Part shown: in pieces, positions 24,522 through 38,499 of the stretch
Layout: every line of letters starts with the position of its first letter
Position numbering within the stretch: position 1 is the stretch's first letter
Assembly: GCF_988243305.1 (NCBI RefSeq)
Contig: NZ_OZ547136.1
DNA length: 64,000 nucleotides
Direction: 5' to 3' (one strand)
Notes under the pieces: model-generated
What the model was told of the DNA's origin: nothing
Seen by the model: only the letters and a program-made list of their open reading frames with translations
The model's database searches: none
Translations under genes and position numbers: made by a program

Positions 24522-25479
24522 ATGACAAACTTCACAACCAGCACGCCGCATGACGCATTATTTAAATCCTTTCTCACGCACCCTGACACCGCGCGGGATT
24601 TTATGGAGATCCACTTACCCAAAGATTTACGTGAACTGTGCGATCTCGACAGCTTAAAACTGGAATCCGCAAGCTTCGTCGATGAAAAATTGCGGGCGCT
24701 ACACTCCGATATTCTGTGGTCGGTAAAGACCCGTGAAGGTGATGGTTATATTTACGTAGTGATTGAACATCAGAGCCGCGAGGATATCCATATGGCCTTT
24801 CGCCTGATGCGATATTCCATGGCGGTGATGCAGCGCCATATCGAGCATGATAAACGCCGGCCGCTACCGCTGGTCATCCCGATGCTGTTTTATCACGGTA
24901 GCCGTAGTCCTTATCCCTGGTCTTTGTGCTGGCTGGACGAATTTGCCGACCCGACTACTGCACGGAAGCTTTATACTGCAGCGTTCCCGCTGGTGGATGT
25001 CACTGTCGTGCCGGACGACGAGATTGTGCAGCACCGCAAAGTCGCCCTGTTGGAGTTGATCCAAAAGCATATTCGCCAGCGCGATCTAATGGGACTTACT
25101 TGATCAACTGGCAGTATTACTGGTTACAGGGTGCGCTAATGACAGCCAGATAACCGCGCTGTTAAATTACATTTTACTGACTGGCGATGAAGCGCGTTTT
25201 AAAGAGTTTATCAGCGAACTAACCAGTCGAATGCCACAACAAAGGGAGCGAATAATGACGATTGCAGAGCGAATTCATAATGATGGATGGCTGTTGGGAA
25301 GGGAGAGGGGGAGGAAAGAAGGGAAAGTAGAAGGGGAACGGAGCCTCCTCCGATTGTTGTTGCAGAATGGGGCCGATCCTGAATGGATACAACGATATAC
25401 CGGACTTTCGGCAGAGCAAATGCAGGCATTAGATCAGCCCTTGCCTGAAAGCAAGCGTGATCCATGGATCGAGTACTAA
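24522..25479 (+). pseudogene. rpnD: Recombination-promoting nuclease RpnD (YhgA-like/transposase_31 family), frameshifted into two ORFs (24522-25103 and 25231-25479)
   Basis: A PD-(D/E)xK N-terminal region (…[13 protein letters not shown]…[12 protein letters not shown]…) continues in another frame (…[18 protein letters not shown]…[24 protein letters not shown]…). The same split (yjiP/yjiQ) occurs in K-12. Confidence 0.75.
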
Positions 25480-27134: not shown

Positions 27135-27310
27135 GCTGTATTCCTTATGTGGACCATACAGAGAGAAAAACCGGTACAGATGAGGCTAAAAAACCGGATG
27201 CAGATGCTGTTTTAACCTGTCTGTATGTTAAATAAAACTAATATTTGCATCTGTATTGTGAACTGCCAGAAGACGGATGATGAAGCCTCTGAAAGATGAG
27301 GAGGCAGCAG

Positions 27311-27475
27311 ATGGAATTTCACGAAAACAAAGCCAAAACGCCGTTTATCAGACTTGTGCAACTCTGGCAGGCGGTGAGGCGTTGGCGGCGGCAAATGCAG
27401 GCCCGGCGGGTGTTACAGCAGATGAGTGATGAGCGGTTGAGGGATATTGGGTTACGCAGGGAGGATGTGGAGTGA
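27311..27475 (+). CDS. yjiS: DUF1127 small protein YjiS, 54 aa
   Basis: MEFHENKAKTPFIRLVQLWQAVRRWRRQMQARRVLQQMSDERLRDIGLRREDVE*. The ORF is too short for the supplied track. DUF1127 signature …RLRDIG…. Confidence 0.75.
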   Translation: MEFHENKAKTPFIRLVQLWQAVRRWRRQMQARRVLQQMSDERLRDIGLRREDVE

Positions 27476-27550
27476 TAGAGGATGTTGAGAATAAATCAGG
27501 ATATTAACTTTTTATATGTACCCAGGAAGAAACCAGGGTACATATAGATA

Positions 27551-28264
27551 TTAGTTGAATTTAATATCAGCAATCAATTTTTTGATATAATCTTCTGGTT
27601 TCATCTTTGTTTTTTCTTTTATTTGCTGATAAGTTTCTTTCTTAATGTTGATTTCAATTGTTTTATTTTTATTGATAATGCACGCAATTGGTAATAGTAG
27701 CAATAATGTAATAATTATAATTATAAGAATTATTTTTGAATTTCCATGTGAGTCCGATTCCTTCATTTTTTGGAATATTCTTCTCATGACTGGATTAACT
27801 GCTGAAGAAAACATAATCATAATGATAAAAACAGCCAAAAAATCTAATGTATATTTTGCGTAGTAACTTTCAGTATTCATCTCAAAAAACAGCAACCACG
27901 CCAGAGCACAAAACAATGTCATGCCAAAACATATAAATGAAATAATAAAGCCAATTTGTTGCGTTCTTTTATCTAGTTCAGAGAGAAATTTCTCACCAAC
28001 TCTTTGACCTTTATAAGGTGAAATAAGTGTGTGGGCGGCATTGAAAAATACATTTGTGCAAATCAAAACAAAGAATATATTGATTGGCATAAATCCTATA
28101 AGTGTATAAAAGAAGAAGTCTTGTTGAAGATAGTACGGTAATTGATTATCAACTTCCATTAACAATGTAAATATAAAACCGAAAGAAACATAAAAAAACA
28201 AACCTTCTTCACGTAATTTTTTAATGTATTTTTTGAATTTAAAATCTTTAATCATCTTCAGCAT
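27551..28264 (-). CDS. Very AT-rich 5-transmembrane membrane protein of unknown function, 237 aa, immediately downstream of hsdR
   Basis: A 237-aa ORF with five hydrophobic segments and a Lys/Glu-rich C-terminal tail. RBS aggaatag. GC is far below backbone. It is 64 bp downstream of the hsdR stop and a hairpin lies between them. Confidence 0.6.
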   Translation of the reverse strand: MLKMIKDFKFKKYIKKLREEGLFFYVSFGFIFTLLMEVDNQLPYYLQQDFFFYTLIGFMPINIFFVLICTNVFFNAAHTLISPYKGQRVGEKFLSELDKRTQQIGFIISFICFGMTLFCALAWLLFFEMNTESYYAKYTLDFLAVFIIMIMFSSAVNPVMRRIFQKMKESDSHGNSKIILIIIIITLLLLLPIACIINKNKTIEINIKKETYQQIKEKTKMKPEDYIKKLIADIKFN

Positions 28265-28290
28265 AGCTATTCCTAATTGTAAACAATATG

Positions 28291-28316
28291 GCCGGGGTAG
28301 AAAGTGCGACCCCGGC
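28291..28316 (-). terminator. Hairpin (possible attenuator/terminator) between hsdR and the membrane-protein gene
   Basis: gccggggtagaaagtgcgaccccggc is a 7-bp GC stem. On the minus strand it is followed by ttgttt. Confidence 0.35.
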
Positions 28317-28328
28317 TATCAACGTGTT

Positions 28329-31300
28329 TTATGTTGGCAAAGCAATTTTCCCCGTGAGCATATCAAACATCAGATAAGCAAAGCCCTTTGCCCGAACTGG
28401 ATCGGATAAATATTGCAACATAAATTCTTGCCGAGCGTCATTACTGTCCATTACAGCATTATCAACTGCCTGGAGGAAATCACCAAGAATCGCTTGTTCT
28501 GGCGGATTGTTTTTAATTTGTGTCATAACATTTTCATTTTCAGTTATTTTGTTATACACCGAAAAAGCATTGCTGATCATATCTTTCTCGGTCAAATGGT
28601 CGCTAATGAATAATTCATTCATCCGAGAAAGCACCTGCGATAAAAATTCCTCTTTTTTATCTTTCGCTTTTGCCGTACCAATATCATTACTTGCATCCAG
28701 CGTATAGTCAGGCGTTTCTTCCTGTAAACGTAAATCTTGCTCATGGATTTTCGATAAACGATAGTGACTCATCTCTACATTACTGAGATCAATTTCATCC
28801 TCTTCCAGACGTTGCTCATGCAGCAGCGGACGCAGATGACGGGCAAACAGGCTTAGCTTTTCCAGATCTTTGTCATCGTATTCGACGATCTGCGACATAA
28901 ATTCGTAAAAGCGAACAAAGCTGCCGAGATCTTTTTTGAATATTTCCAGACGATCTTTTTCCTGCTTACAGGCTTTAAAACTGTTTTCCGCATTAGTGAT
29001 TAACACCGTATCGCCCGTTTTTTTGGTGCGCTCGAACATCTCTTTGGCGGTCAGATAAGCGTCTATCGCCATCAGATAACGCTTTTTCCAGCGTTCTACC
29101 GCCGGTTTGCATATATTACTGATCGCTGCATTCGATTTATTTTTGATGAAGAATGCCTCGCAGAACTGCTCGACTTCATGCCACTGAAAGATCTGCGTGG
29201 CGCGCAGTTTTTCAAACAGATCGAAAACCTGCTGCGGATCGCTGACATCGGTCAGTTCCGCCGTCTGGAAATAGGGCTGGAACGCGCCGAGGATCTCGTC
29301 CGGATCGTTATAAAAATCGAGAACAAAAGTGCCTGATTCCGCTTTGCCCGGATAGGTGCGATTCAGGCGGGAGAGCGTCTGCACGCACTCGACGCCGCCG
29401 AGGGCTTTATCCACGTACATCGCGCACAGTTTCGGCTGGTCAAAACCGGTCTGGAATTTATTGGCGACCAACATGACCTGATAATCATCGCTGTCGAAGG
29501 CTTTGCGCATATCCCGCCCTTTCAGGCCGGGGTTCATGTTTATTTCAGTAAATTTCTGGTTTAACAATGCCAGGCTGTTATGGTCGCCTTCCTGGAATTC
29601 AACTTCCCCGGAAAACGCCACCATCGCGCTGATTTTCTGGTAATTGTTCTCGCTAATGTATTTATCAAACGCCAGCTTGTAGCGTACAGCGGCTTTGCGT
29701 GAACTGGTGACCACCATCGCTTTAGCCTGGCCGCCAAGCAGGTGCATCACATGTTTGCGGAAGTGCTCCACAATCACCTTCACCTTCTGCGAGATATTGT
29801 GGTCGTGCAGTGTCACCCACTGGTTGAGCTTAATCTTCGCCCGTTTGCTATCGACTTCGCGGTCTTTGTCTTCCAGCTTTTGCAGCAACTGATACGCCAC
29901 TTTGTAGTTGGTGTAGTTTTTCAGCACGTCGAGGATAAAGCCTTCTTCGATTGCCTGGCGCATGGAGTAGACGTGGAAGGCCTCAGGTTTATTGGTTTTT
30001 GACGCCGGTTCATCGGGACGTGGACGGCGACCAAAAAGTTCGAGGGTTTTGGATTTTGGCGTGGCGGTAAAGGCGTAGTAGTTCAGGTTACTGCTGCCTT
30101 TCCGGGCGGCAATGGTCGCATCCAGAATATCTTCTGACGACAGCACCACGTCATTATCCATTTCTTCGCTCATCAGCACTTCTTTAAGCTGACGGGCGGT
30201 GGAACCGCTCTGCGAGGAGTGCGCTTCGTCGGCAATCACCGCATATTTACGCTGCTTCAGGCTGACGCTGTTTTCGATTGCTTTCAGTACGAATGGGAAC
30301 GTCTGGATGGTGACAATAATGATCGGCTGCGAGTTTTCCAGCGCGCTGGCCAGCTTTTCCGATTTGGAGCCGTCGCCCTCTTTGTTATTGATGCGCCCGA
30401 CCACGCCGTCGGCGTGTTCGAACTGCCAGATGGTGTCCTGAAGCTGGTCGTCCAGCACCGTGCGGTCCGTCACCACGATAATGGAGTGGAACTGTTTTTC
30501 CCCGTTCACGTCGTACAGACGAGAAAGCTGGTGGGCGGTCCAGGCAATGGAGTTCGATTTACCGGAACCGGCGCTGTGCTGGATCAGGTATTTATGGCCG
30601 GTTCCTTCAATCGTCGCGGCCTCCAGCAGTTTGTTGACCACATCCCACTGATGATAACGCGGGAAAATCAGGCTCTCTTTCTTCGCTTTCAGCCCGTTCC
30701 ACTCCTCTTTTTCTTCAATATGCAAATGGACAAAACTGGCGAGGATTTTTAATAAGTTGTCCGGCAGCAGCACTTCATTCCACAGATAATCTGTGGCGTA
30801 GCGGTGGGTATCTTCGGGGATCTCGTTGCCTGCGCCGCCGTCTTTGGTGCCTTTGTTAAACGGCAGGAAGAAGGTGCTGTCACCCGCGAGTTTGGTGGTC
30901 ATAAAGACGTCATACTGGCTGACGGCAAAATGCACCAGCGCGCCGCGCTTAAAGGTCAGCAGCGGTTCCGGTTTATTGGTGGCGGGATCTTTCGGCAGGC
31001 GGGTCTTTTTGTACTGCGCAATGGCGTTCTGCACCGCCTGTTTGAATTCGGATTTCAGCTCCAGCGTGGCAATTGGCAGGCCGTTGATAAACAGCACCAG
31101 GTCGATGCGCCATTTTTTGGCTTTCACGCCCGTTTCTGCAAAGACGCTATTTGAGGCATACGGGCTGTAGACCAGTTCCGGCACGATACGGCAGATATTC
31201 TGCTGATAGCGCGCCAGCGTTTCCGGGTTGAGATTATGTTCCGGTTTAAACTGACACAGCGAAAAACGGGCATTGCGGATTTTCAGTCCGTGGCGAAGTA

Positions 31301-31592
31301 CGCCGAGCGTACCCCAGGTGCGCGACTGGATGTCGGTGGCGTTGCTGTCGGCTTTTTTTAACTGCGCAACCAGCGCGTCGAGGAAATGGCGCTCGGTGTC
31401 GTTGGGGTAAACGCGGGCGAATTTCTCCCACTCCTGTGGTTGGGTGATTTGTACAAAGAGCAGGGCGTCTTGTGCGTATAGCGCACGTTCACGATCGTAG
31501 CCGTCGCCTTTGCCGACAATCCAGCCTTTTGCTGCCATCTGCGCGATGATGTCGTTTTGTAGGTTGACCTCTTTTGCAATGTCGTTGCTCAT
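28329..31592 (-). CDS. hsdR: Type I restriction enzyme R subunit, 1087 aa
   Basis: N-terminal PD-(D/E)xK (…RIDLVLFINGLPIATLELK…). SF2 helicase motifs: Walker A HSAGSGKSNS and DEAH VIADEAHSS. Its start overlaps the hsdS stop as ATGA. Confidence 0.9.
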   Translation of the reverse strand: MSNDIAKEVNLQNDIIAQMAAKGWIVGKGDGYDRERALYAQDALLFVQITQPQEWEKFARVYPNDTERHFLDALVAQLKKADSNATDIQSRTWGTLGVLRHGLKIRNARFSLCQFKPEHNLNPETLARYQQNICRIVPELVYSPYASNSVFAETGVKAKKWRIDLVLFINGLPIATLELKSEFKQAVQNAIAQYKKTRLPKDPATNKPEPLLTFKRGALVHFAVSQYDVFMTTKLAGDSTFFLPFNKGTKDGGAGNEIPEDTHRYATDYLWNEVLLPDNLLKILASFVHLHIEEKEEWNGLKAKKESLIFPRYHQWDVVNKLLEAATIEGTGHKYLIQHSAGSGKSNSIAWTAHQLSRLYDVNGEKQFHSIIVVTDRTVLDDQLQDTIWQFEHADGVVGRINNKEGDGSKSEKLASALENSQPIIIVTIQTFPFVLKAIENSVSLKQRKYAVIADEAHSSQSGSTARQLKEVLMSEEMDNDVVLSSEDILDATIAARKGSSNLNYYAFTATPKSKTLELFGRRPRPDEPASKTNKPEAFHVYSMRQAIEEGFILDVLKNYTNYKVAYQLLQKLEDKDREVDSKRAKIKLNQWVTLHDHNISQKVKVIVEHFRKHVMHLLGGQAKAMVVTSSRKAAVRYKLAFDKYISENNYQKISAMVAFSGEVEFQEGDHNSLALLNQKFTEINMNPGLKGRDMRKAFDSDDYQVMLVANKFQTGFDQPKLCAMYVDKALGGVECVQTLSRLNRTYPGKAESGTFVLDFYNDPDEILGAFQPYFQTAELTDVSDPQQVFDLFEKLRATQIFQWHEVEQFCEAFFIKNKSNAAISNICKPAVERWKKRYLMAIDAYLTAKEMFERTKKTGDTVLITNAENSFKACKQEKDRLEIFKKDLGSFVRFYEFMSQIVEYDDKDLEKLSLFARHLRPLLHEQRLEEDEIDLSNVEMSHYRLSKIHEQDLRLQEETPDYTLDASNDIGTAKAKDKKEEFLSQVLSRMNELFISDHLTEKDMISNAFSVYNKITENENVMTQIKNNPPEQAILGDFLQAVDNAVMDSNDARQEFMLQYLSDPVRAKGFAYLMFDMLTGKIALPT

Positions 31593-32992
31593 GCGCTGGC
31601 CTCCGTGGGTGTTTCTGCTTTGGGGATGGGGGCGGTCCAGTTGCGTAGGTCGATTTTTCCGGTGACGGCAGCGGAGATAAGGGCGGTGCGGCGTTCCTGG
31701 ATTAGCATTATTGCTTGATTGGTTTTAAATATTATGAGATCAATTTGTGCGCATTTTTCATTCAAGGCGTTGACGATTGATTGTGCTTCACCCAATGGGG
31801 GAAATATAAACTTGGTTGTTTTAAAGTCACCTAATGAAACTCTTTTTCTTGTTCCCTCAATACTAATGTTATTAATGGTTTGTCGCCCAAAATTTGAGTT
31901 CAATAGATATGCTATGAAATGTGCATTGAAGGTTTTTTTATTAACTCTTACTCTCATAACATCTTGCGTTATGACAGCATCTGGTTCATTTTTAGGATAA
32001 ACGCACGCTTCTCCTGGGGGATCTCCGACTTTTGAAAAAATCACATCATTTGAGGATAATTTACATATTTCAAGCTGTTGGGCTTTTTGATGAGTAACAT
32101 ATACAGTACTTTTTCTGTTATAACCTGTCGCTTTTATATCTCGAATGTATACGACAGGTACCCCTTCTTCTTTCAATTCACTTGCTAGTAAATCACTTCC
32201 AAATGGCCCATTTACGAAGCATCCTTTAGTTTCATCACCAGTATTGGCTAATTTACTCTTAAACCAGTGGGAGGGTGCTTCGCCTAATCCTGTTAAACCA
32301 GAATCTTTCATCGGCACATCAGGATTTAGCCCTTTGGTCACCGCATGGCTAATCACTGCCTGACGTTTTTCTTTAAGTAGTTCAATGAGTTGTTGTTGTT
32401 TCTCGATCAGGTCATCGATTTTTGCTGTTTCATGATCAAGGAAAAGTGCAATCTTAGAAGATTCATCATTACGAGGTTTTGGGCATTGTATATCGCCTAA
32501 AAGTTCAAGGTTTAAACCGTCTCGTAAATCACCGCCAGCCATGTTACGTATATTCTGATAATTAGAAATGAGCCACCAAAATATATAGCGAGATTGATTC
32601 TTTTTATACAATACAATGGCCGCCATGGATTGGTTACAAGTGGTATTAATACCAAGTTGTGCAACCATACCTTTGGTTTTTCCCTGCCCAGCTAAAGCGA
32701 CAACAAGTGCCCCTTTTGGTATCCACTTGGCACTACTATTTTCAAGTGCAGCGTTAGATATATATGTGGATGGCTCGACTATATAACCTTGATTTACTGC
32801 TCCAGAACTAATCCAGGGAACTGTACCATTCTCCCAATAATCAATAACATTTTTGGAGGGAGTTCCTCCTGCAAAAATATTGGATAGCCACCTCAGCTTA
32901 GTTTTTTTCCAGTTTAGTGGTAATTCATTACACCACTCCATCCCAGAATCCCTATACTCCGGATACGCCTGATATTTATTTAACCCCGCCAT
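31589..32992 (-). CDS. hsdS: Type I restriction-modification specificity subunit, 467 aa, two target-recognition domains
   Basis: A 467-aa low-GC ORF with duplicated architecture, coupled to hsdM upstream and hsdR downstream. Confidence 0.8.
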   Translation of the reverse strand: MAGLNKYQAYPEYRDSGMEWCNELPLNWKKTKLRWLSNIFAGGTPSKNVIDYWENGTVPWISSGAVNQGYIVEPSTYISNAALENSSAKWIPKGALVVALAGQGKTKGMVAQLGINTTCNQSMAAIVLYKKNQSRYIFWWLISNYQNIRNMAGGDLRDGLNLELLGDIQCPKPRNDESSKIALFLDHETAKIDDLIEKQQQLIELLKEKRQAVISHAVTKGLNPDVPMKDSGLTGLGEAPSHWFKSKLANTGDETKGCFVNGPFGSDLLASELKEEGVPVVYIRDIKATGYNRKSTVYVTHQKAQQLEICKLSSNDVIFSKVGDPPGEACVYPKNEPDAVITQDVMRVRVNKKTFNAHFIAYLLNSNFGRQTINNISIEGTRKRVSLGDFKTTKFIFPPLGEAQSIVNALNEKCAQIDLIIFKTNQAIMLIQERRTALISAAVTGKIDLRNWTAPIPKAETPTEASA

Positions 32993-35346
32993 CAGGAATG
33001 TACCTCCTGCAACAGTTTCATAATCTCAGCGCTTACCGCATCCAAATCAGCATCAATCTCCTCCAACGGTCGCGGCGGTGTATAAACATAAAAATGACGA
33101 TTAAACGGAATTTCATACCCCACAATCCCGATATCCCCATCTTTCGCATCGCGTTTATCGGCATTGATCCACGCATCCGCAACATGCGGCAATACTTCCG
33201 CTTTGAAGTAATCCTCGATCAACTCGTTGGTAGATACCGCCGGATTTAACGGCACATTCTCGTTATCACGCAGGTCGCCATCCGATTCAAACTCCACAAC
33301 CTTTCCGTGGTACTCAAACGCGCCGTACAGCGGTTGGGGCGCTTCTTTCAGAACCTTGCTGATTACCGGCTCGGCGTCCGGGTTTTTGCGGGTGATAGCA
33401 TCGATAAACTGCTTGTTCTCTTTCGCATCCAGCTTCACGCCTGCGGTTCTGAGCGCCTCTTTCAGCGTCAACTGGAACTGATTAAAGTCATTGCTAACAG
33501 TCTCTTTGCCACCCGCCAGCATCCTCATCGCTGCCTGAATACGCCGCGCTTTTTCCATTAACCCGCGCTGGGCCAGCCATAATTTGCTGTCGAGCAGATC
33601 TTTAATTTGCTTCTCTTTCAGCTCGCTAAAATCGGCTTTAAGAATGGCGCGGGCTTCACTTTCTACCGCTGTTAAGTCGCCGTAATTACCGTCCTGCCAC
33701 TGGAAAGCAAAGGCGTCATACAGTTGCGCCATCGGCGCGTTAAACGGCTTCGGCGCAAAGCGCAATGTGGCAATGGCGTCATCACTTATCTGAGCCGACA
33801 GGCGTAACGGGCGCTCAACGGTGATGCGACGATAGCCAAACTCGGTGCTGTGAAAGACTTTGCTGGCAAAGGTTTTTGCCGCCTCGGTTTTGGTTGTTGC
33901 GGGCTGGCGTCCCCGGCTGGATTTTTGTTCGGGTGCTTTCTCCAGGCCTAACGCCGCAAGCGTAGTGGTGGCAACGGGTTCGAAATCGCCAAACGTGCGG
34001 GTGATTAAACCAATATCCTCCTCCCCGAGAATATTACGTTTTGATCCCAGCGATTTACGCATCTTTCCGCACAGGTTGCTGCCGTCGATTAGCTGGACTT
34101 TACCTTTGCGTTCTGGCGCTTTTTTGTTAGACAGCACCCAAACATAGGTAGCGATACCGGTGTTGTAAAACATATCGGTGGGCAGGGCGATAATGCCTTC
34201 CAGCAAATCCGCTTCCAGAATGTAGCGGCGGATCTCGCTTTCACCGCTGCCTGCGCCGCCGGTGAATAACGGCGAACCATTAAGAATGATGCCGATCCGT
34301 CCGCCACCGCTTTTGGCATCGCGCATTTTGCTGATCAGATGCAGCAGAAACAGCAACGAACCGTCGGAGACTCGGGGCAGGCCGGGGCCAAAGCGACCAT
34401 CAGCACCTTTGAGTTTGTGCTCGTTGTTGATGTCGGTTTCTATCTTTTTCCAGTCCACGCCGAAAGGTGGATTAGAGAGCATGTAATCGAATTTTTCTGC
34501 GGGGAGCTGATCGTTGGAAAGGGTGTTGCCGAGTTTGATAAGGCTGACATCCTGGCCCTTAATCAGCATGTCGGCTTTGCAGATGGCGTAGGATTCCGGG
34601 TTTAACTCCTGACCAAACGCGCGCATCACGGCATTGGGGTTTTGTTTGTGGACGTACTCCATGCCGGAGGAGAGAAAGCCGCCGGTTCCCGCCGTTGGGT
34701 CGTAAATGGTGCGAATGATACCGTCTTTATTGAGTGCATCATCATCATCGAAAAACACCAGCGAGGTGGTCAGATTGACGATATCACGCGGGGTAAAGTG
34801 CTCCCCGGCGGTTTCGTTAGAACTCTCGGCAAAACGTCGGATCAGCTCCTCAAATACCAGCCCCATATCGTGGTTGGTGACGTGCTCCGGGTATAAATCT
34901 GCTTTAGCGAATATTTGCACCACTTTGAACAGTAAGTTTGCATCCGCCAGCTGTCCGACAAACTCGCTGAACTTGAAGTGTTCGAAAATTTCGCGGGCAT
35001 CCGAAGAGAACGACTGGATGTAGTTTTCCAGGTTGTCCTGTATGCCATTTTGCCCCATTTTGCTGAGATCCATCGCTGAGGCATTGAAGAACGTGAGGCC
35101 ATTAGTCGCCCGCAGGATCATTTTCTCCTGGGCTTCCTCCGGCAGTTTCATGGCTTTTACTTTTTGCGCCTCGGTAATGACCGCGTCTTTCGTTGTTTCG
35201 AGTACGCATTCCAGACGACGCAAAAGGGTAAAAGGAAGAATAATTCGTCCATATTGTGATTGTTTAAAATCGCCGCGTAACAGGTCGGCGACAGACCACA
35301 GGAAGGCTGCAATCTGGCTGAAATTAGTTGATGACATAAAAAGCAT
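32992..35346 (-). CDS. hsdM: Type I restriction-modification N6-adenine DNA methyltransferase subunit, unusually long (784 aa)
   Basis: HsdM_N-like N-terminus (…[22 protein letters not shown]…). AdoMet motif [11 protein letters not shown]. Catalytic motif IV NPPFG. There are about 250 aa after the methyltransferase core. Confidence 0.85.
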
Positions 35347-37764: not shown

Positions 37765-38499
37765 ATGACAACCAAACTACTGGACCTGAGCTGGAATGCA
37801 AATGCCATCCCGGCGATGCAAATTGTCGGTACGCGCGCGGCCTTGTTTACCTTCAAAACGCATATGGCAGGGTTTGTCTGGGATGCCGCGCAACTGGAAA
37901 ATAACCCCTATACCTTTGTTGAAGTTAAAACGCTGCTCGATGGCGTCACCGTTGGCGGGCATAAGGTCAGTGATACTGAGCAGGTGTTGAACCTGGCAGA
38001 TAGCGCAAAAAAACTGATTGAACTTGTGCAATCCGGGCGTTTCGATCTTGATAAGAAAACGTTCACGTTGCTTAACGGCATTATTGCGCGTAATGAGGCG
38101 CTGGAGTGGGGCGTTTTTCGCGGCGAAGGTGATGAGTTACATTACAATGCGCGCGTTCACCTCGGCGAGTTGGGCACCCATTTCCCACCAGCCACAGAAG
38201 CAGGTGCACCTGAACTGAATCGAATATTCGCCGCAGGTGTGGCACAAATAAAAGAGATGCCACCGTTCGAAGGGGCGCTGGCAATGTTTTTATTTGGTGC
38301 TTATTTTCAGTTTTTCTTTGATGGCAACAAGCGTACCAGTCGCCATATGATGAACGGCTGGTTAATGCGCCACGGTTACAATCCCATTAGTGTACCCGCA
38401 GCTCGTGCGCTGGAGTTCAACAGCAAAATGGTGCGCTTTTATCACAGCAAAGATGCCAGTGAAATGATGGCATTTTTGGTGGATTGCTATCAGGTTTGA
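37765..38499 (+). CDS. Fic/Doc (Fido)-fold protein with non-canonical active-site motif QxFxDGNKRxxR, 244 aa
   Basis: …AYFQFFFDGNKRTSRHMMNGWL… aligns to the Fic motif HxFx(D/E)GNGRxxR and the Doc motif HxFxDGNKR, but Gln sits at the catalytic His position. It lies 43 bp downstream of the GmrSD-like gene and has a good RBS (aaggatcc). Confidence 0.6.
   Translation: MTTKLLDLSWNANAIPAMQIVGTRAALFTFKTHMAGFVWDAAQLENNPYTFVEVKTLLDGVTVGGHKVSDTEQVLNLADSAKKLIELVQSGRFDLDKKTFTLLNGIIARNEALEWGVFRGEGDELHYNARVHLGELGTHFPPATEAGAPELNRIFAAGVAQIKEMPPFEGALAMFLFGAYFQFFFDGNKRTSRHMMNGWLMRHGYNPISVPAARALEFNSKMVRFYHSKDASEMMAFLVDCYQV

What the first reader, a model, noticed from the sequence alone, without database searches (positions are those of the whole stretch)
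27551..28316. Orphan, extremely AT-rich 5-TM membrane protein gene appended to the 3' end of the hsd operon
The 237-aa ORF is roughly 27% GC against about 50% for the backbone. It has five predicted transmembrane helices and a K/E-rich cytoplasmic tail (…KKETYQQIKEKTKMKPEDYIKKLIADIKFN). It recalls no family I know. It sits 64 bp downstream of the hsdR stop, behind a GC hairpin (28291-28316) that could act as an attenuator.
Small, AT-rich, multi-TM proteins in defence islands are frequently abortive-infection or superinfection-exclusion effectors. It could also be a phage-derived moron.
Basis: seen in the sequence. Interest (0 to 1): 0.6.

Follow-up and report, generated by a model that had tools for sequence, protein, structure and literature searches.

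The report
Membrane protein with ribbon-helix-helix tail
The AT-rich gene behind the restriction operon is real and conserved: it encodes an uncharacterised inner-membrane protein ending in a small ribbon-helix-helix module, and its relatives in Salmonella and other enterobacteria hold the same slot at the edge of the restriction island, so it is a candidate (untested) new player in defence against incoming DNA.

Summary
A 237-codon ORF lies at 27551-28264 (-). It has 27.2% GC against 49.7% for the window. It starts 64 nt after the hsdR stop and follows an 8-bp GC hairpin at 28291-28316.

The ORF is a real gene. An ORF this long has about a 7e-10 chance of arising at random in this composition. 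Between Escherichia alleles dN/dS is 0.1-0.6, and about 0.05 in the C-terminal tail.

It is not an orphan. It belongs to a very small gammaproteobacterial family that includes a Salmonella protein whose record maps it to LT2 STM4522. The family matches nothing in Pfam, NCBIfam, PADLOC or PHROGs.

The architecture is new to me: five predicted TM helices plus a roughly 35-aa tail that profile searches place in the ribbon-helix-helix (Arc/MetJ/CopG) superfamily.

In Escherichia, Salmonella, Pseudocitrobacter and an unnamed enterobacterium, the gene is the last co-directional gene at the yjiS/aldehyde-dehydrogenase edge of the immigration control region. It sits there after three unrelated Type I cassettes, or after symE, or beside an mrr remnant only. 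Vibrio and Alishewanella homologues lie in defence islands. Other homologues do not.

No relative was found in the phage or plasmid collections searched.

The function is unknown. My best guess is a membrane-resident exclusion or abortive-type accessory factor. The side of the membrane that carries the tail is unresolved.

The parts
27551..28264 (-). Gene X: 237-aa inner-membrane protein with a ribbon-helix-helix-like tail. The Salmonella homologue's record maps it to LT2 STM4522. The stop codon is at 27551-27553.
   Evidence: ORF. P(chance) about 7e-10. dN/dS 0.1-0.6. Homologues.
28202..28264 (-). Residues 1-21: K/R-rich N-terminal stretch (8 K/R) ending in the conserved LREEG motif. Predicted to be cytoplasmic.
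   Evidence: Alignment. Charge counts. Low pLDDT.
27674..28201 (-). Residues 22-197: five-TM helical bundle, plus a short helix at residues 50-58 on the side of loops 1 and 3. This is the fastest-evolving part of the protein.
   Evidence: AF2 helices 9-41, 61-80, 87-125, 134-169, 174-196. Hydropathy. pN 0.047 against 0.006 in the tail. No specific fold match.
27554..27673 (-). Residues 198-237: ribbon-helix-helix-like tail. Extended stretch TIEINIK, then helix 209-219, an MKP turn, and helix 223-233.
   Evidence: AF2. Tail profile against PDB 1x93 HP0222, E 3.4e-7 and 1.2e-7. Pfam RHH families in family members. hhalign link between the enterobacterial and distant tails, 84% probability. omega about 0.05.
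28271..28274 (-). AGGA Shine-Dalgarno-like motif, 6 nt before the ATG. Invariant in nine Escherichia alleles.
28291..28316 (-). GC hairpin (8-bp stem, 10-nt loop) between hsdR and gene X, followed by the T-rich sequence CATATTGTTT. It may be a weak terminator of hsdR.
   Evidence: Analogous hairpins precede the homologues in Salmonella and Pseudocitrobacter.
27513..27546 (.). Strong hairpin (11-bp stem with an inner 2-bp extension) between the convergent genes X and yjiS. Probably a bidirectional terminator.
   Evidence: z = -5.25; 0 of 200 shuffles fold as well
28329..31592 (-). hsdR (1087 aa), immediately upstream and co-directional with gene X.
   Evidence: Pfam HSDR_N, ResIII, SWI2_SNF2, T1R_D3-like
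31589..35346 (-). hsdS (467 aa) and hsdM (784 aa), which complete the M-S-R operon.
   Evidence: Pfam Methylase_S, HsdM_N, N6_Mtase
27296..27475 (+). yjiS (DUF1127), the conserved framework gene that bounds the immigration control region. It is convergent with gene X.

Best explanation
Shown.
- Gene X is a functional, horizontally acquired accessory gene.
- It encodes a polytopic inner-membrane protein with five predicted TM helices.
- Its strongly conserved 35-40-aa C-terminus is homologous to ribbon-helix-helix (RHH) domains.
- It is the Escherichia member of a tiny gammaproteobacterial family, which includes the Salmonella gene mapped to STM4522.
- The enterobacterial members hold a fixed slot at the yjiS/aldehyde-dehydrogenase edge of the immigration control region. 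Each is the last co-directional gene after whatever Type I hsd or hsd-symE cassette lies there.

Inferred.
- The protein dimerises through the RHH beta-ribbon.
- It works on its own, not as a subunit of the Type I enzyme.
- It is a membrane-resident accessory barrier to incoming phage or foreign DNA, of the superinfection-exclusion or abortive type.
- In the window it is expressed mainly by read-through past the weak hairpin after hsdR.
- The fast-evolving TM bundle would be the part that meets the invader or forms the effector.
- The conserved RHH tail would be the assembly or nucleic-acid/protein-binding module.

Unresolved: which side of the membrane the tail faces.
For: Real gene under purifying selection. 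Chance P is about 7e-10. dN/dS is 0.1-0.6 overall and about 0.05 in the tail. The gene is intact in E. fergusonii at 86% aa identity, and there are homologues at 29-42% identity.

RHH tail. The secondary structure is strand, helix, turn, helix. The tail profile hits HP0222 (1x93) at E 3.4e-7 and 1.2e-7, and HP0564 (2k1o) at 0.009 and 0.0035. Both are RHH folds (PMC6269979). Family members hit Pfam NikA-like (5 members, best E 7e-5), TacA1, RHH_7, CopG_antitoxin, RHH_1, ParD and FitA-like. The enterobacterial tails link to the distant tails by hhalign at 84% probability, E 8e-6.

Fixed slot in the ICR beside unrelated cassettes.
- E. coli and E. fergusonii: hsdMSR-X-yjiS.
- L024: mrr-hsdMSR-X-Aldedh, with an HsdR only 25% identical to the window's.
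- Pseudocitrobacter: hsdRMS-symE-X.
- Salmonella: hsdRMS-symE-X-yjiS.
- L002: mrr remnant-X-Aldedh.

Independent defence-island contexts.
- V. parahaemolyticus: X lies between a Bub-type ubiquitin-like system and a dGTPase (PADLOC E 1.6e-53).
- Alishewanella: X lies in an integrase-bearing island next to an Mrr-type nuclease and an HNH gene.

Autonomy. There is no conserved partner gene, and some homologues stand alone behind a divergent gene.

Patchiness typical of accessory defence genes. It is in 114 of 5426 E. coli genomes. Only one of 185,579 species representatives was hit in the genome scan.

Precedent. [quoted passage not shown]
Against: - There is no experimental evidence of any kind, and no literature on STM4522 or on the RefSeq accessions.
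- There are no hits to 5027 PADLOC models or to PHROGs.
- The enterobacterial contexts are one syntenic locus, so they count as a single association with defence.
- The Pseudomonas, Enterobacter (downstream of a GFA-family gene) and hut-linked homologues have no defence neighbours.
- The RHH assignment rests mainly on distant family members. The enterobacterial tail profile alone finds no RHH structure, and the window's own tail has no Pfam RHH hit.
- Topology conflict. The positive-inside rule over 16 members puts the N-terminus and loops 2 and 4 inside (4.6, 4.2 and 3.2 K/R against 0.8 and 1.2). That places the tail in the periplasm, where a DNA-binding fold has no usual substrate.
- Frameshifted alleles and many truncated database entries suggest the gene is often lost.
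- No minus-strand promoter was found near the gene.
- DNA at 27% GC is likely to be silenced by H-NS in E. coli (general knowledge).
Confidence: 0.4

Rival explanations
1. Membrane-tethered one-component regulator. The TM bundle senses an envelope or membrane signal. The RHH tail, in the cytoplasm, binds DNA and regulates its own or neighbouring genes, or tethers DNA to the membrane.
For: - RHH domains are classically DNA-binding repressors (PMC6269979), and the tail is homologous to them.
- Inverted repeats lie 20-50 nt before the start codon in several loci (Fisher P 2e-4 against shuffles).
- These include a 7-bp palindrome in two Pseudomonas species that is preserved through a two-sided change.
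- The E. coli tail is net +5.
Against: - The positive-inside rule places the tail outside the cytoplasm.
- The upstream repeats differ completely between E. coli, Salmonella and Pseudocitrobacter although their tails are very similar.
- The Salmonella repeat looks like the symE terminator.
- Across the family the tail is charge-neutral (7.9+/7.7-), with acidic residues at the start of helix B.
- There is no conserved target gene in the contexts.
Confidence: 0.2
2. An ordinary accessory membrane protein (transport, envelope or stress function) that merely hitch-hikes in a recombination hotspot and has no role against foreign DNA.
For: - The ICR also carries apparent non-defence genes such as an aldehyde dehydrogenase and mdtM (PMC12707154).
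- Several homologues sit among metabolic genes.
- There are weak sub-threshold similarities to MscS_TM and DUF898.
Against: - All transporter and channel hits are below the curated cut-offs.
- The RHH tail is hard to fit to a transporter.
- There are independent defence-island contexts in Vibrio and Alishewanella.
Confidence: 0.2
3. A guard of Type I restriction. This would be a membrane effector that is triggered when the neighbouring restriction enzyme is inhibited, for example by DNA-mimic anti-restriction proteins, which the basic RHH tail could bind. It would work like PrrC does with EcoprrI.
For: - X lies directly after hsdR in two unrelated Type I families, and after hsdS-symE in two more.
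- In E. coli, X and this hsdR 3' end are each found in exactly 114 complete genomes.
Against: - X persists where hsd has been deleted (L002).
- Outside the Enterobacteriaceae it is never next to hsd.
- There is no similarity to PrrC, RloC or any PADLOC model.
- The tail is possibly periplasmic.
Confidence: 0.07
4. A toxin-antitoxin-like or addiction element. The membrane domain is a latent toxin, and the RHH part is derived from an antitoxin or autorepressor and stabilises the island.
For: - The Pfam hits of family tails are mostly to RHH antitoxins (TacA1, CopG_antitoxin, ParD, FitA-like).
- The ICR is rich in toxin-antitoxin genes such as symE and brnA.
Against: - No adjacent partner gene is conserved.
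- Frameshifted alleles that remove the tail exist in viable strains.
- A fused membrane toxin plus RHH has no described precedent that I know of.
Confidence: 0.08
5. A decaying or non-functional remnant that annotation pipelines keep calling.
For: - Two of the E. coli genomes sampled carry frameshifts.
- Many truncated clusters exist in Escherichia and Salmonella.
- The ORF has eight A/T homopolymer runs.
Against: - dN/dS is well below 1, with omega about 0.05 in the tail.
- The gene is intact across Escherichia, Salmonella and more distant genera, with in-frame indels only.
Confidence: 0.05

Closest known systems
Ribbon-helix-helix (Arc/MetJ/CopG) superfamily, e.g. H. pylori HP0222 (PDB 1x93), HP0564, NikA, ParD/ParG, TacA
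   Same: The last 35-40 residues have the pattern strand, helix A, short turn, helix B, with alternating hydrophobic residues in the strand. Profile matches go to HP0222 (E about 1e-7) and to several Pfam RHH families.
   Different: Known members are small soluble cytoplasmic DNA-binding proteins, or N-terminal domains of soluble proteins. Here the module is the C-terminal tail of a five-TM protein and is predicted by charge bias to face the periplasm. The enterobacterial subgroup has a 3-residue shorter helix A/B junction. DNA binding is untested.
Phage superinfection-exclusion inner-membrane proteins (P22 SieA; also T4 Imm, HK97 gp15) and the surface lipoprotein Ltp of phage TP-J34
   Same: - They are small, single-gene, partner-less, very fast-diverging membrane proteins that block DNA entry. 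For SieA see PMC10883804.
- From my own knowledge of Bebeacua et al. 2013 (cited in PMC3952083), Ltp exposes DNA-binding-type helical domains outside the cytoplasm and targets the tape measure protein. That is a precedent for an extracytoplasmic 'DNA-binding' fold.
   Different: There is no sequence or fold similarity (PHROGs, BFVD, phage tblastn). X is chromosomal, sits in a restriction island and is not prophage-borne. It has five TM helices rather than one to three. No exclusion phenotype has been shown.
Restriction-linked accessory genes (prrC in EcoprrI, rlo genes of Campylobacter, symE next to hsd)
   Same: X is a non-R-M gene embedded co-directionally in or after a Type I hsd cluster. 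Like SymE, it carries a fold typical of antitoxins or DNA binders.
   Different: There is no homology to these genes. X keeps its slot when the hsd family changes or is deleted. It is a membrane protein.
Membrane-bound one-component transcription factors (ToxR/CadC, BcrR)
   Same: A DNA-binding-type domain is covalently tethered to a membrane domain.
   Different: Those proteins have N-terminal wHTH or HTH domains with an established cytoplasmic location. Here the domain is an RHH at the C-terminus and its predicted topology is opposite.

Membership tests
Ribbon-helix-helix superfamily (tail, residues 198-237) | Secondary-structure order: beta-strand, helix A, tight turn, helix B, within about 40-45 residues | tested here: met
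   AF2 gives an extended stretch at 197-208, helix 209-219 and helix 223-233, with pLDDT 77-84 in this part. A monomer model cannot form the strand pairing.
Ribbon-helix-helix superfamily (tail, residues 198-237) | Significant sequence-profile similarity to established RHH families | tested here: inconclusive
   - The family-wide tail profile hits 1x93 at E 3.4e-7, and the distant-member profile hits it at 1.2e-7.
- Members hit Pfam NikA-like (5 of 15), TacA1, RHH_7, RHH_1 and ParD.
- The window's own tail has no RHH hit.
- The enterobacterial-only profile has no RHH hit.
- The link for the window's tail is indirect, through hhalign at 84% probability.
Ribbon-helix-helix superfamily (tail, residues 198-237) | Intertwined dimer with an antiparallel beta-ribbon that inserts into the DNA major groove | not testable with these tools
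   This needs a multimer prediction or an experiment.
Known anti-phage defence proteins (PADLOC-DB 2.0) | Match to a model of a known or candidate defence protein | tested here: not met
   0 of 5027 models at E <= 10
Phage-encoded exclusion or moron proteins (PHROGs, phage genomes) | Homologue in phage genomes or phage protein families | tested here: not met
   - Best PHROG E is 0.012, to a family of unknown function.
- tblastn against 50,697 phage records finds only a Salmonella chromosomal contig.
- The IMG/VR scan, which used two peptide patterns, found none.
- The best BFVD fold match has E 0.4.
Type I R-M system component | Obligate co-occurrence with one hsd family | tested here: not met
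   In E. coli, X and this hsdR 3' end are each found in 114 genomes. However, homologues follow an HsdR of only 25% identity, or follow hsdRMS-symE, or have no hsd at all. Outside the enterobacteria none is next to hsd.
MFS transporter (the RefSeq name in two E. coli genomes) | Pfam MFS_1 above the gathering score; 12 TM helices | tested here: not met
   MFS_1 scores 10.8 bits against a cut-off of 33.4. Only five TM helices are predicted.
MscS_TM / DUF898 membrane families | Score above the Pfam gathering threshold | tested here: not met
   20.2 and 20.0 bits against a cut-off of 28. These are typical hydrophobic-segment matches.
Type II toxin-antitoxin pair with an RHH antitoxin | Adjacent co-transcribed toxin gene | tested here: not met
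   No small partner ORF is conserved next to X in any locus. In the window the neighbours are hsdR and the convergent yjiS.

The most novel reading that the evidence does not exclude
The RHH-like tail really is displayed on the periplasmic face of the inner membrane, as the charge bias predicts. There it intercepts incoming DNA or the phage/conjugative DNA-delivery conduit. This would make X the first chromosomal, restriction-island-resident entry-exclusion factor built from a DNA-binding fold, working as a pre-entry barrier paired by position with post-entry restriction.
Probability: 0.12. Interest if true: 0.8.

Novelty: new variant of a known kind. Interest (0 to 1): 0.5.

Why it matters
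The enterobacterial immigration control region is the oldest studied defence island, yet this gene has never been described, although its record-mapped counterpart is annotated in Salmonella LT2 (STM4522). A polytopic membrane protein fused to a ribbon-helix-helix module is an architecture with no described precedent that I could find. If it acts on incoming DNA, it would add a membrane-level layer to the island and give a new single-gene defence family to test. If the tail is periplasmic, it would extend where RHH folds are known to work. If it turns out to be only a hitch-hiking membrane protein, the value is limited to a corrected annotation: not an orphan, not an MFS transporter.

Tried and rejected
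- **Curated libraries.** Pfam, NCBIfam, PADLOC and PHROGs on the full protein gave only sub-threshold hydrophobic matches.
- **First structure model.** AF2 with 7 sequences was poor (pLDDT 55). The model with 16 sequences was usable (pLDDT 77).
- **Genome scans.** The first genome-contig scan found nothing because its two peptide patterns were too Escherichia-specific. The second found only S. enterica subsp. diarizonae.
- **Viral scan.** One attempt failed because the alignment was too divergent. The repeat, with two patterns, found nothing.
- **Plasmids.** No match.
- **Other E. coli copies.** Distant blastn for diverged copies, and for the Salmonella type, found none beyond the same 114 genomes.
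- **Enterobacterial tail profile alone against PDB.** Only spurious hits.
- **Neighbour genes in Alishewanella, Pseudomonas and Enterobacter.** No family assignments that would explain X.
- **Literature.** Nothing on STM4522, on the RefSeq accessions, or on membrane-anchored RHH proteins. The ICR papers and reviews do not mention the gene.
- **Spacer hairpin as an RHH operator.** Rejected as unsupported, because the corresponding repeats in Salmonella and Pseudocitrobacter are unrelated in sequence.
- **P0067 (492 aa) clustered with the 42-aa tail-like ORF.** It is an HsdM-like protein and was uninformative.
Full report
**1. Is it there?**

Yes. The window has a 237-codon ATG-started ORF at 27551..28264 on the minus strand.
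- hsdR (1087 aa; Pfam HSDR_N, ResIII, SWI2_SNF2, T1R_D3-like) ends at 28329. This leaves a 64-nt spacer.
- The spacer contains GCCGGGGT-N10-ACCCCGGC at exactly 28316-28291. An AGGA lies 6 nt before the ATG.
- GC is 0.272 for the ORF and 0.497 for the window. The hsdR 3' end (0.41) and hsdS (0.40) are also low.
- With this base composition a stop is expected every 12 codons or so. The chance of 237 open codons is about 7e-10, and the other five frames are open for at most 76 codons.
- A strong hairpin (z = -5.25) separates the ORF from the convergent yjiS.

**2. Is it a gene?**

Yes.
- The same DNA is present in 114 of 5426 complete E. coli genomes, always once and always chromosomal. It is annotated 'hypothetical protein' in nearly all, and 'MFS transporter' in two.
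- Eight Escherichia alleles, including E. fergusonii at 86% aa identity, give pairwise dN/dS of 0.10-0.59. The ratio is about 0.37 in the TM core and about 0.05 in the last 40 residues.
- Two sampled genomes carry frameshifts. The ORF has eight A/T runs of 6-7 nt. Truncated versions are common in the databases.
- The gene is therefore maintained, but it is evidently easy to lose or to mis-sequence.

**3. Where is it?**

The annotated E. coli relative shows the locus is the immigration control region (ICR). The order there is btsT-yjiX-yjiA, a BrnA/Fic pair, a GmrSD-type gene, hsdM-hsdS-hsdR, X, then yjiS-yjiR-rpn-mdtM-yjiN. Pfam on the window's own ORFs agrees. E. fergusonii has the same cassette. 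In E. coli the hsdR 3' end is also found in exactly 114 genomes, the same number as X.

**4. Is it an orphan?**

No, but the family is tiny.
- A word-indexed search of 5.8 billion proteins gave 8 clusters.
- An exhaustive profile search of 1.84 billion representatives gave 21 hits, 7 of them below 1e-10.
- Named sources are E. coli, E. fergusonii, Salmonella enterica, Pseudocitrobacter faecalis, Enterobacter wuhouensis and E. bugandensis, Vibrio parahaemolyticus, Alishewanella/Rheinheimera and Pseudomonas. All are called 'hypothetical' or 'inner membrane protein'.
- A tblastn hit in a Salmonella Infantis contig is an intact 233-aa homologue at 37% identity. Its record cross-references LT2 STM4522. 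Its 90% cluster holds 772 member sequences from several serovars.
- No paper mentions STM4522 or the RefSeq accessions.
- Nothing significant was found in Pfam, NCBIfam, PADLOC or PHROGs.

**5. What is the protein?**

*Membrane bundle.*
- With a 16-sequence alignment, AlphaFold2 gives pLDDT 77 and pTM 0.67. The helices are 9-41, 50-58, 61-80, 87-125, 134-169 and 174-196. An extended stretch at 197-208 follows, then helices 209-219 and 223-233.
- Hydropathy and the model agree on five membrane helices.

*Tail.* In the distant homologues the tail reads like a textbook ribbon-helix-helix, for example KSIEISVDVEQFDVIKELANRENVSVEEYARRVL.
- A profile of 15 tails hits H. pylori HP0222 (PDB 1x93) at E 3.4e-7 and HP0564 (2k1o) at 0.009. 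ParG and ParD follow at about 0.3.
- The nine non-enterobacterial tails alone give 1.2e-7 and 0.0035. Both top hits are RHH folds (PMC6269979).
- Scanned singly, family tails hit Pfam NikA-like (5 members, best E 7e-5), TacA1, RHH_7, CopG_antitoxin, DUF6290, RHH_1, ParD and FitA-like.
- The window's own tail does not hit RHH by itself, and neither does the enterobacterial-only profile.
- Its membership therefore rests on the full-length family alignment and on an hhalign match between the two tail subgroups. That match has 84% probability and E 8e-6 over 36 columns, with a 3-residue deletion at the helix A/B junction.

*Conclusion.* The tail is RHH-derived with good but not complete confidence.

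**6. Which side of the membrane?**

Over 16 members the mean K+R counts are:

| Segment | Mean K+R |
|---|---|
| N-terminus | 4.6 |
| Loop 1 | 0.8 |
| Loop 2 | 4.2 |
| Loop 3 | 1.2 |
| Loop 4 | 3.2 |

- With five TM helices this pattern gives N-in and C-out. The tail would then be periplasmic.
- The tail itself is charge-neutral across the family (7.9+/7.7-), though it is net +5 in E. coli.
- This conflicts with the usual cytoplasmic, DNA-binding life of RHH domains. I could not resolve the conflict with the tools available.

**7. Contexts**

Within the Enterobacteriaceae, X keeps one slot at the yjiS/aldehyde-dehydrogenase edge of the ICR. It is co-directional with the gene before it and lies 32-73 nt after it.

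| Locus | Arrangement |
|---|---|
| Window | hsdM(784)-S-R(1087)-X |
| L024 / L025 / L017 | mrr-hsdM(539)-S-R-X; HsdR only 25% identical to the window's, while X is 38% identical |
| Pseudocitrobacter (L018) | mrr-hsdR-M-S-symE-X |
| Salmonella (L026) | mrr-hsdR-M-S-symE-X-yjiS |
| L002 | X between an Mrr C-terminal remnant and the dehydrogenase; no hsd |

X is therefore a resident of the island's edge, and hsd cassettes are exchanged beside it. It is not a subunit tied to one Type I family.

Outside the enterobacteria the contexts are mixed:
- V. parahaemolyticus: X lies in an island with a Multi_ubiq/ThiF/BubE system, an M78-peptidase/HTH pair and a dGTPase (PADLOC E 1.6e-53).
- Alishewanella: X is the last gene of a tight four-gene cluster of unknowns. 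The cluster lies in an integrase-bearing island next to an Mrr-type nuclease and an HNH gene.
- Pseudomonas, a hut-linked metagenomic locus and Enterobacter (where X overlaps a GFA-family gene by 4 nt) show no defence neighbours.

No partner gene is conserved. There is no relative in plasmids, in phage genomes or in IMG/VR, which was scanned with two patterns only. Only one of 185,579 species representatives matched in the genome scan, which was also pattern-limited.

**8. The spacer hairpin**

- The hairpin is present and invariant in eight E. coli alleles. It loses two of eight pairs without compensation in E. fergusonii.
- The 86-nt spacer does not fold unusually well (z = -1.4).
- The hairpin is followed by a T-rich stretch. 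The terminator scan did not call it; its 10-nt loop exceeds the scan's 3-8 limit.
- Hairpins occupy the same position before the Salmonella homologue (10-11 bp stem plus a T-run, so terminator-like) and the Pseudocitrobacter homologue. Their sequences are unrelated.
- No sigma-70-like promoter was found on the minus strand nearby.
- The simplest reading is a leaky terminator of the upstream gene, with X expressed by read-through.
- Across 11 loci, inverted repeats before X are stronger than in shuffles (Fisher P 2e-4). Most of that signal comes from these terminator-like hairpins.

**9. Mechanism**

*Shown:* a conserved membrane protein with an RHH-type C-terminal module, autonomous, patchy, fast-evolving in the bundle and frozen in the tail, sitting in defence islands in at least three independent settings.

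*Inferred (confidence about 0.4):* a single-gene, membrane-resident barrier to incoming DNA of the exclusion or abortive type, dimerised through the RHH ribbon.
- A precedent for a DNA-binding-type fold used outside the cytoplasm is Ltp of phage TP-J34. This is from my own knowledge of Bebeacua et al. 2013, which is listed in PMC3952083.

*Rivals:*
- a membrane-tethered RHH regulator (0.2);
- an unrelated membrane function hitch-hiking in the hotspot (0.2);
- a toxin-antitoxin-like element (0.08);
- a guard of Type I restriction (0.07);
- a decaying ORF (0.05).

**10. Novelty and score**

- The gene is not described in the literature or in any curated family.
- I found no precedent for a five-TM protein with a C-terminal RHH module.
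- It has been sitting unnoticed in the best-known restriction island, including (per record mapping) in Salmonella LT2.
- Function is still inference from context, and the enterobacterial contexts count as only one association.
- I rate it a new variant of a known kind (an RHH-module protein; a defence-island accessory membrane protein). Interest is 0.5.

Noticed in passing
L004 9960-9978 and L005 9958-9976 (Pseudomonas homologues, -41..-23 and -43..-25 before the start codon): A 7-bp inverted repeat reads CATTCGA-aagaa-TCGAATG in one species and CAATCGA-aagaa-TCGATTG in the other. The palindrome is kept through a change on both arms, while the flanking sequence does not align. It could be an operator for the RHH tail or a 5'UTR hairpin.
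   Followed up: partly
L026 11903-11929 and L030 (Salmonella, between symE and the homologue): A GC-rich hairpin with a 10-11-bp stem, followed by a T-rich run, looks like an intrinsic terminator of symE directly before the homologue. It sits in the same position as the window's hairpin at 28291-28316.
   Followed up: partly
L027 7142-10696 (Alishewanella sp. BS5-314): The homologue is the last gene of a tightly packed cluster of four genes (395, 277, 277 and 231 aa). None of the first three has any Pfam, NCBIfam or PADLOC hit. The first protein contains a VVHSQGA motif that resembles a serine-hydrolase GxSxG site. An Mrr-type nuclease, an HNH gene and an integrase lie nearby.
   Followed up: partly
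window 27551-28264; L014 (E. coli A20), L015 (E. coli KE50): The ORF has eight A6 or T6-7 runs. Two complete genomes carry frameshifted copies, and the databases hold many truncated versions in both Escherichia and Salmonella. I could not tell sequencing error, phase variation and decay apart.
   Followed up: partly
window 32992-35346 (-): hsdM is 784 aa, but Pfam domains (HsdM_N, N6_Mtase) cover only residues 12-458. About 325 C-terminal residues are unassigned.
   Followed up: no
window 27950-28080 (-), residues about 62-105 of the protein: Amino-acid differences between Escherichia alleles cluster in the second TM helix and the start of loop 2, for example TNVFFNAAHTLI, TYIFFNAVHEFI and INAFFIFVHTLI. 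The tail is essentially invariant.
   Followed up: partly
E. coli M21816 and SK0189 (hits H38, H98): RefSeq names this ORF 'MFS transporter' in two genomes. Pfam MFS_1 scores 10.8 bits against a cut-off of 33.4, so the name is unsupported.
   Followed up: yes
P0028 (Citrobacter amalonaticus, WP_260677630.1): A 42-aa annotated protein corresponds to the RHH-like tail alone. It is either a remnant of a disrupted homologue or a free-standing small RHH gene.
   Followed up: no
window 24522-25479 (+): The Rpn-family (yjiP/yjiQ-type) recombination-promoting nuclease gene appears split into two ORFs (193 and 82 aa). The closest E. coli relative annotates two partial pseudogenes at this position.
   Followed up: no
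window 37765-38499 (+): The 244-aa ORF that RefSeq calls 'Fic family protein' in the closest relative gave no Pfam hit at E <= 1e-5.
   Followed up: no
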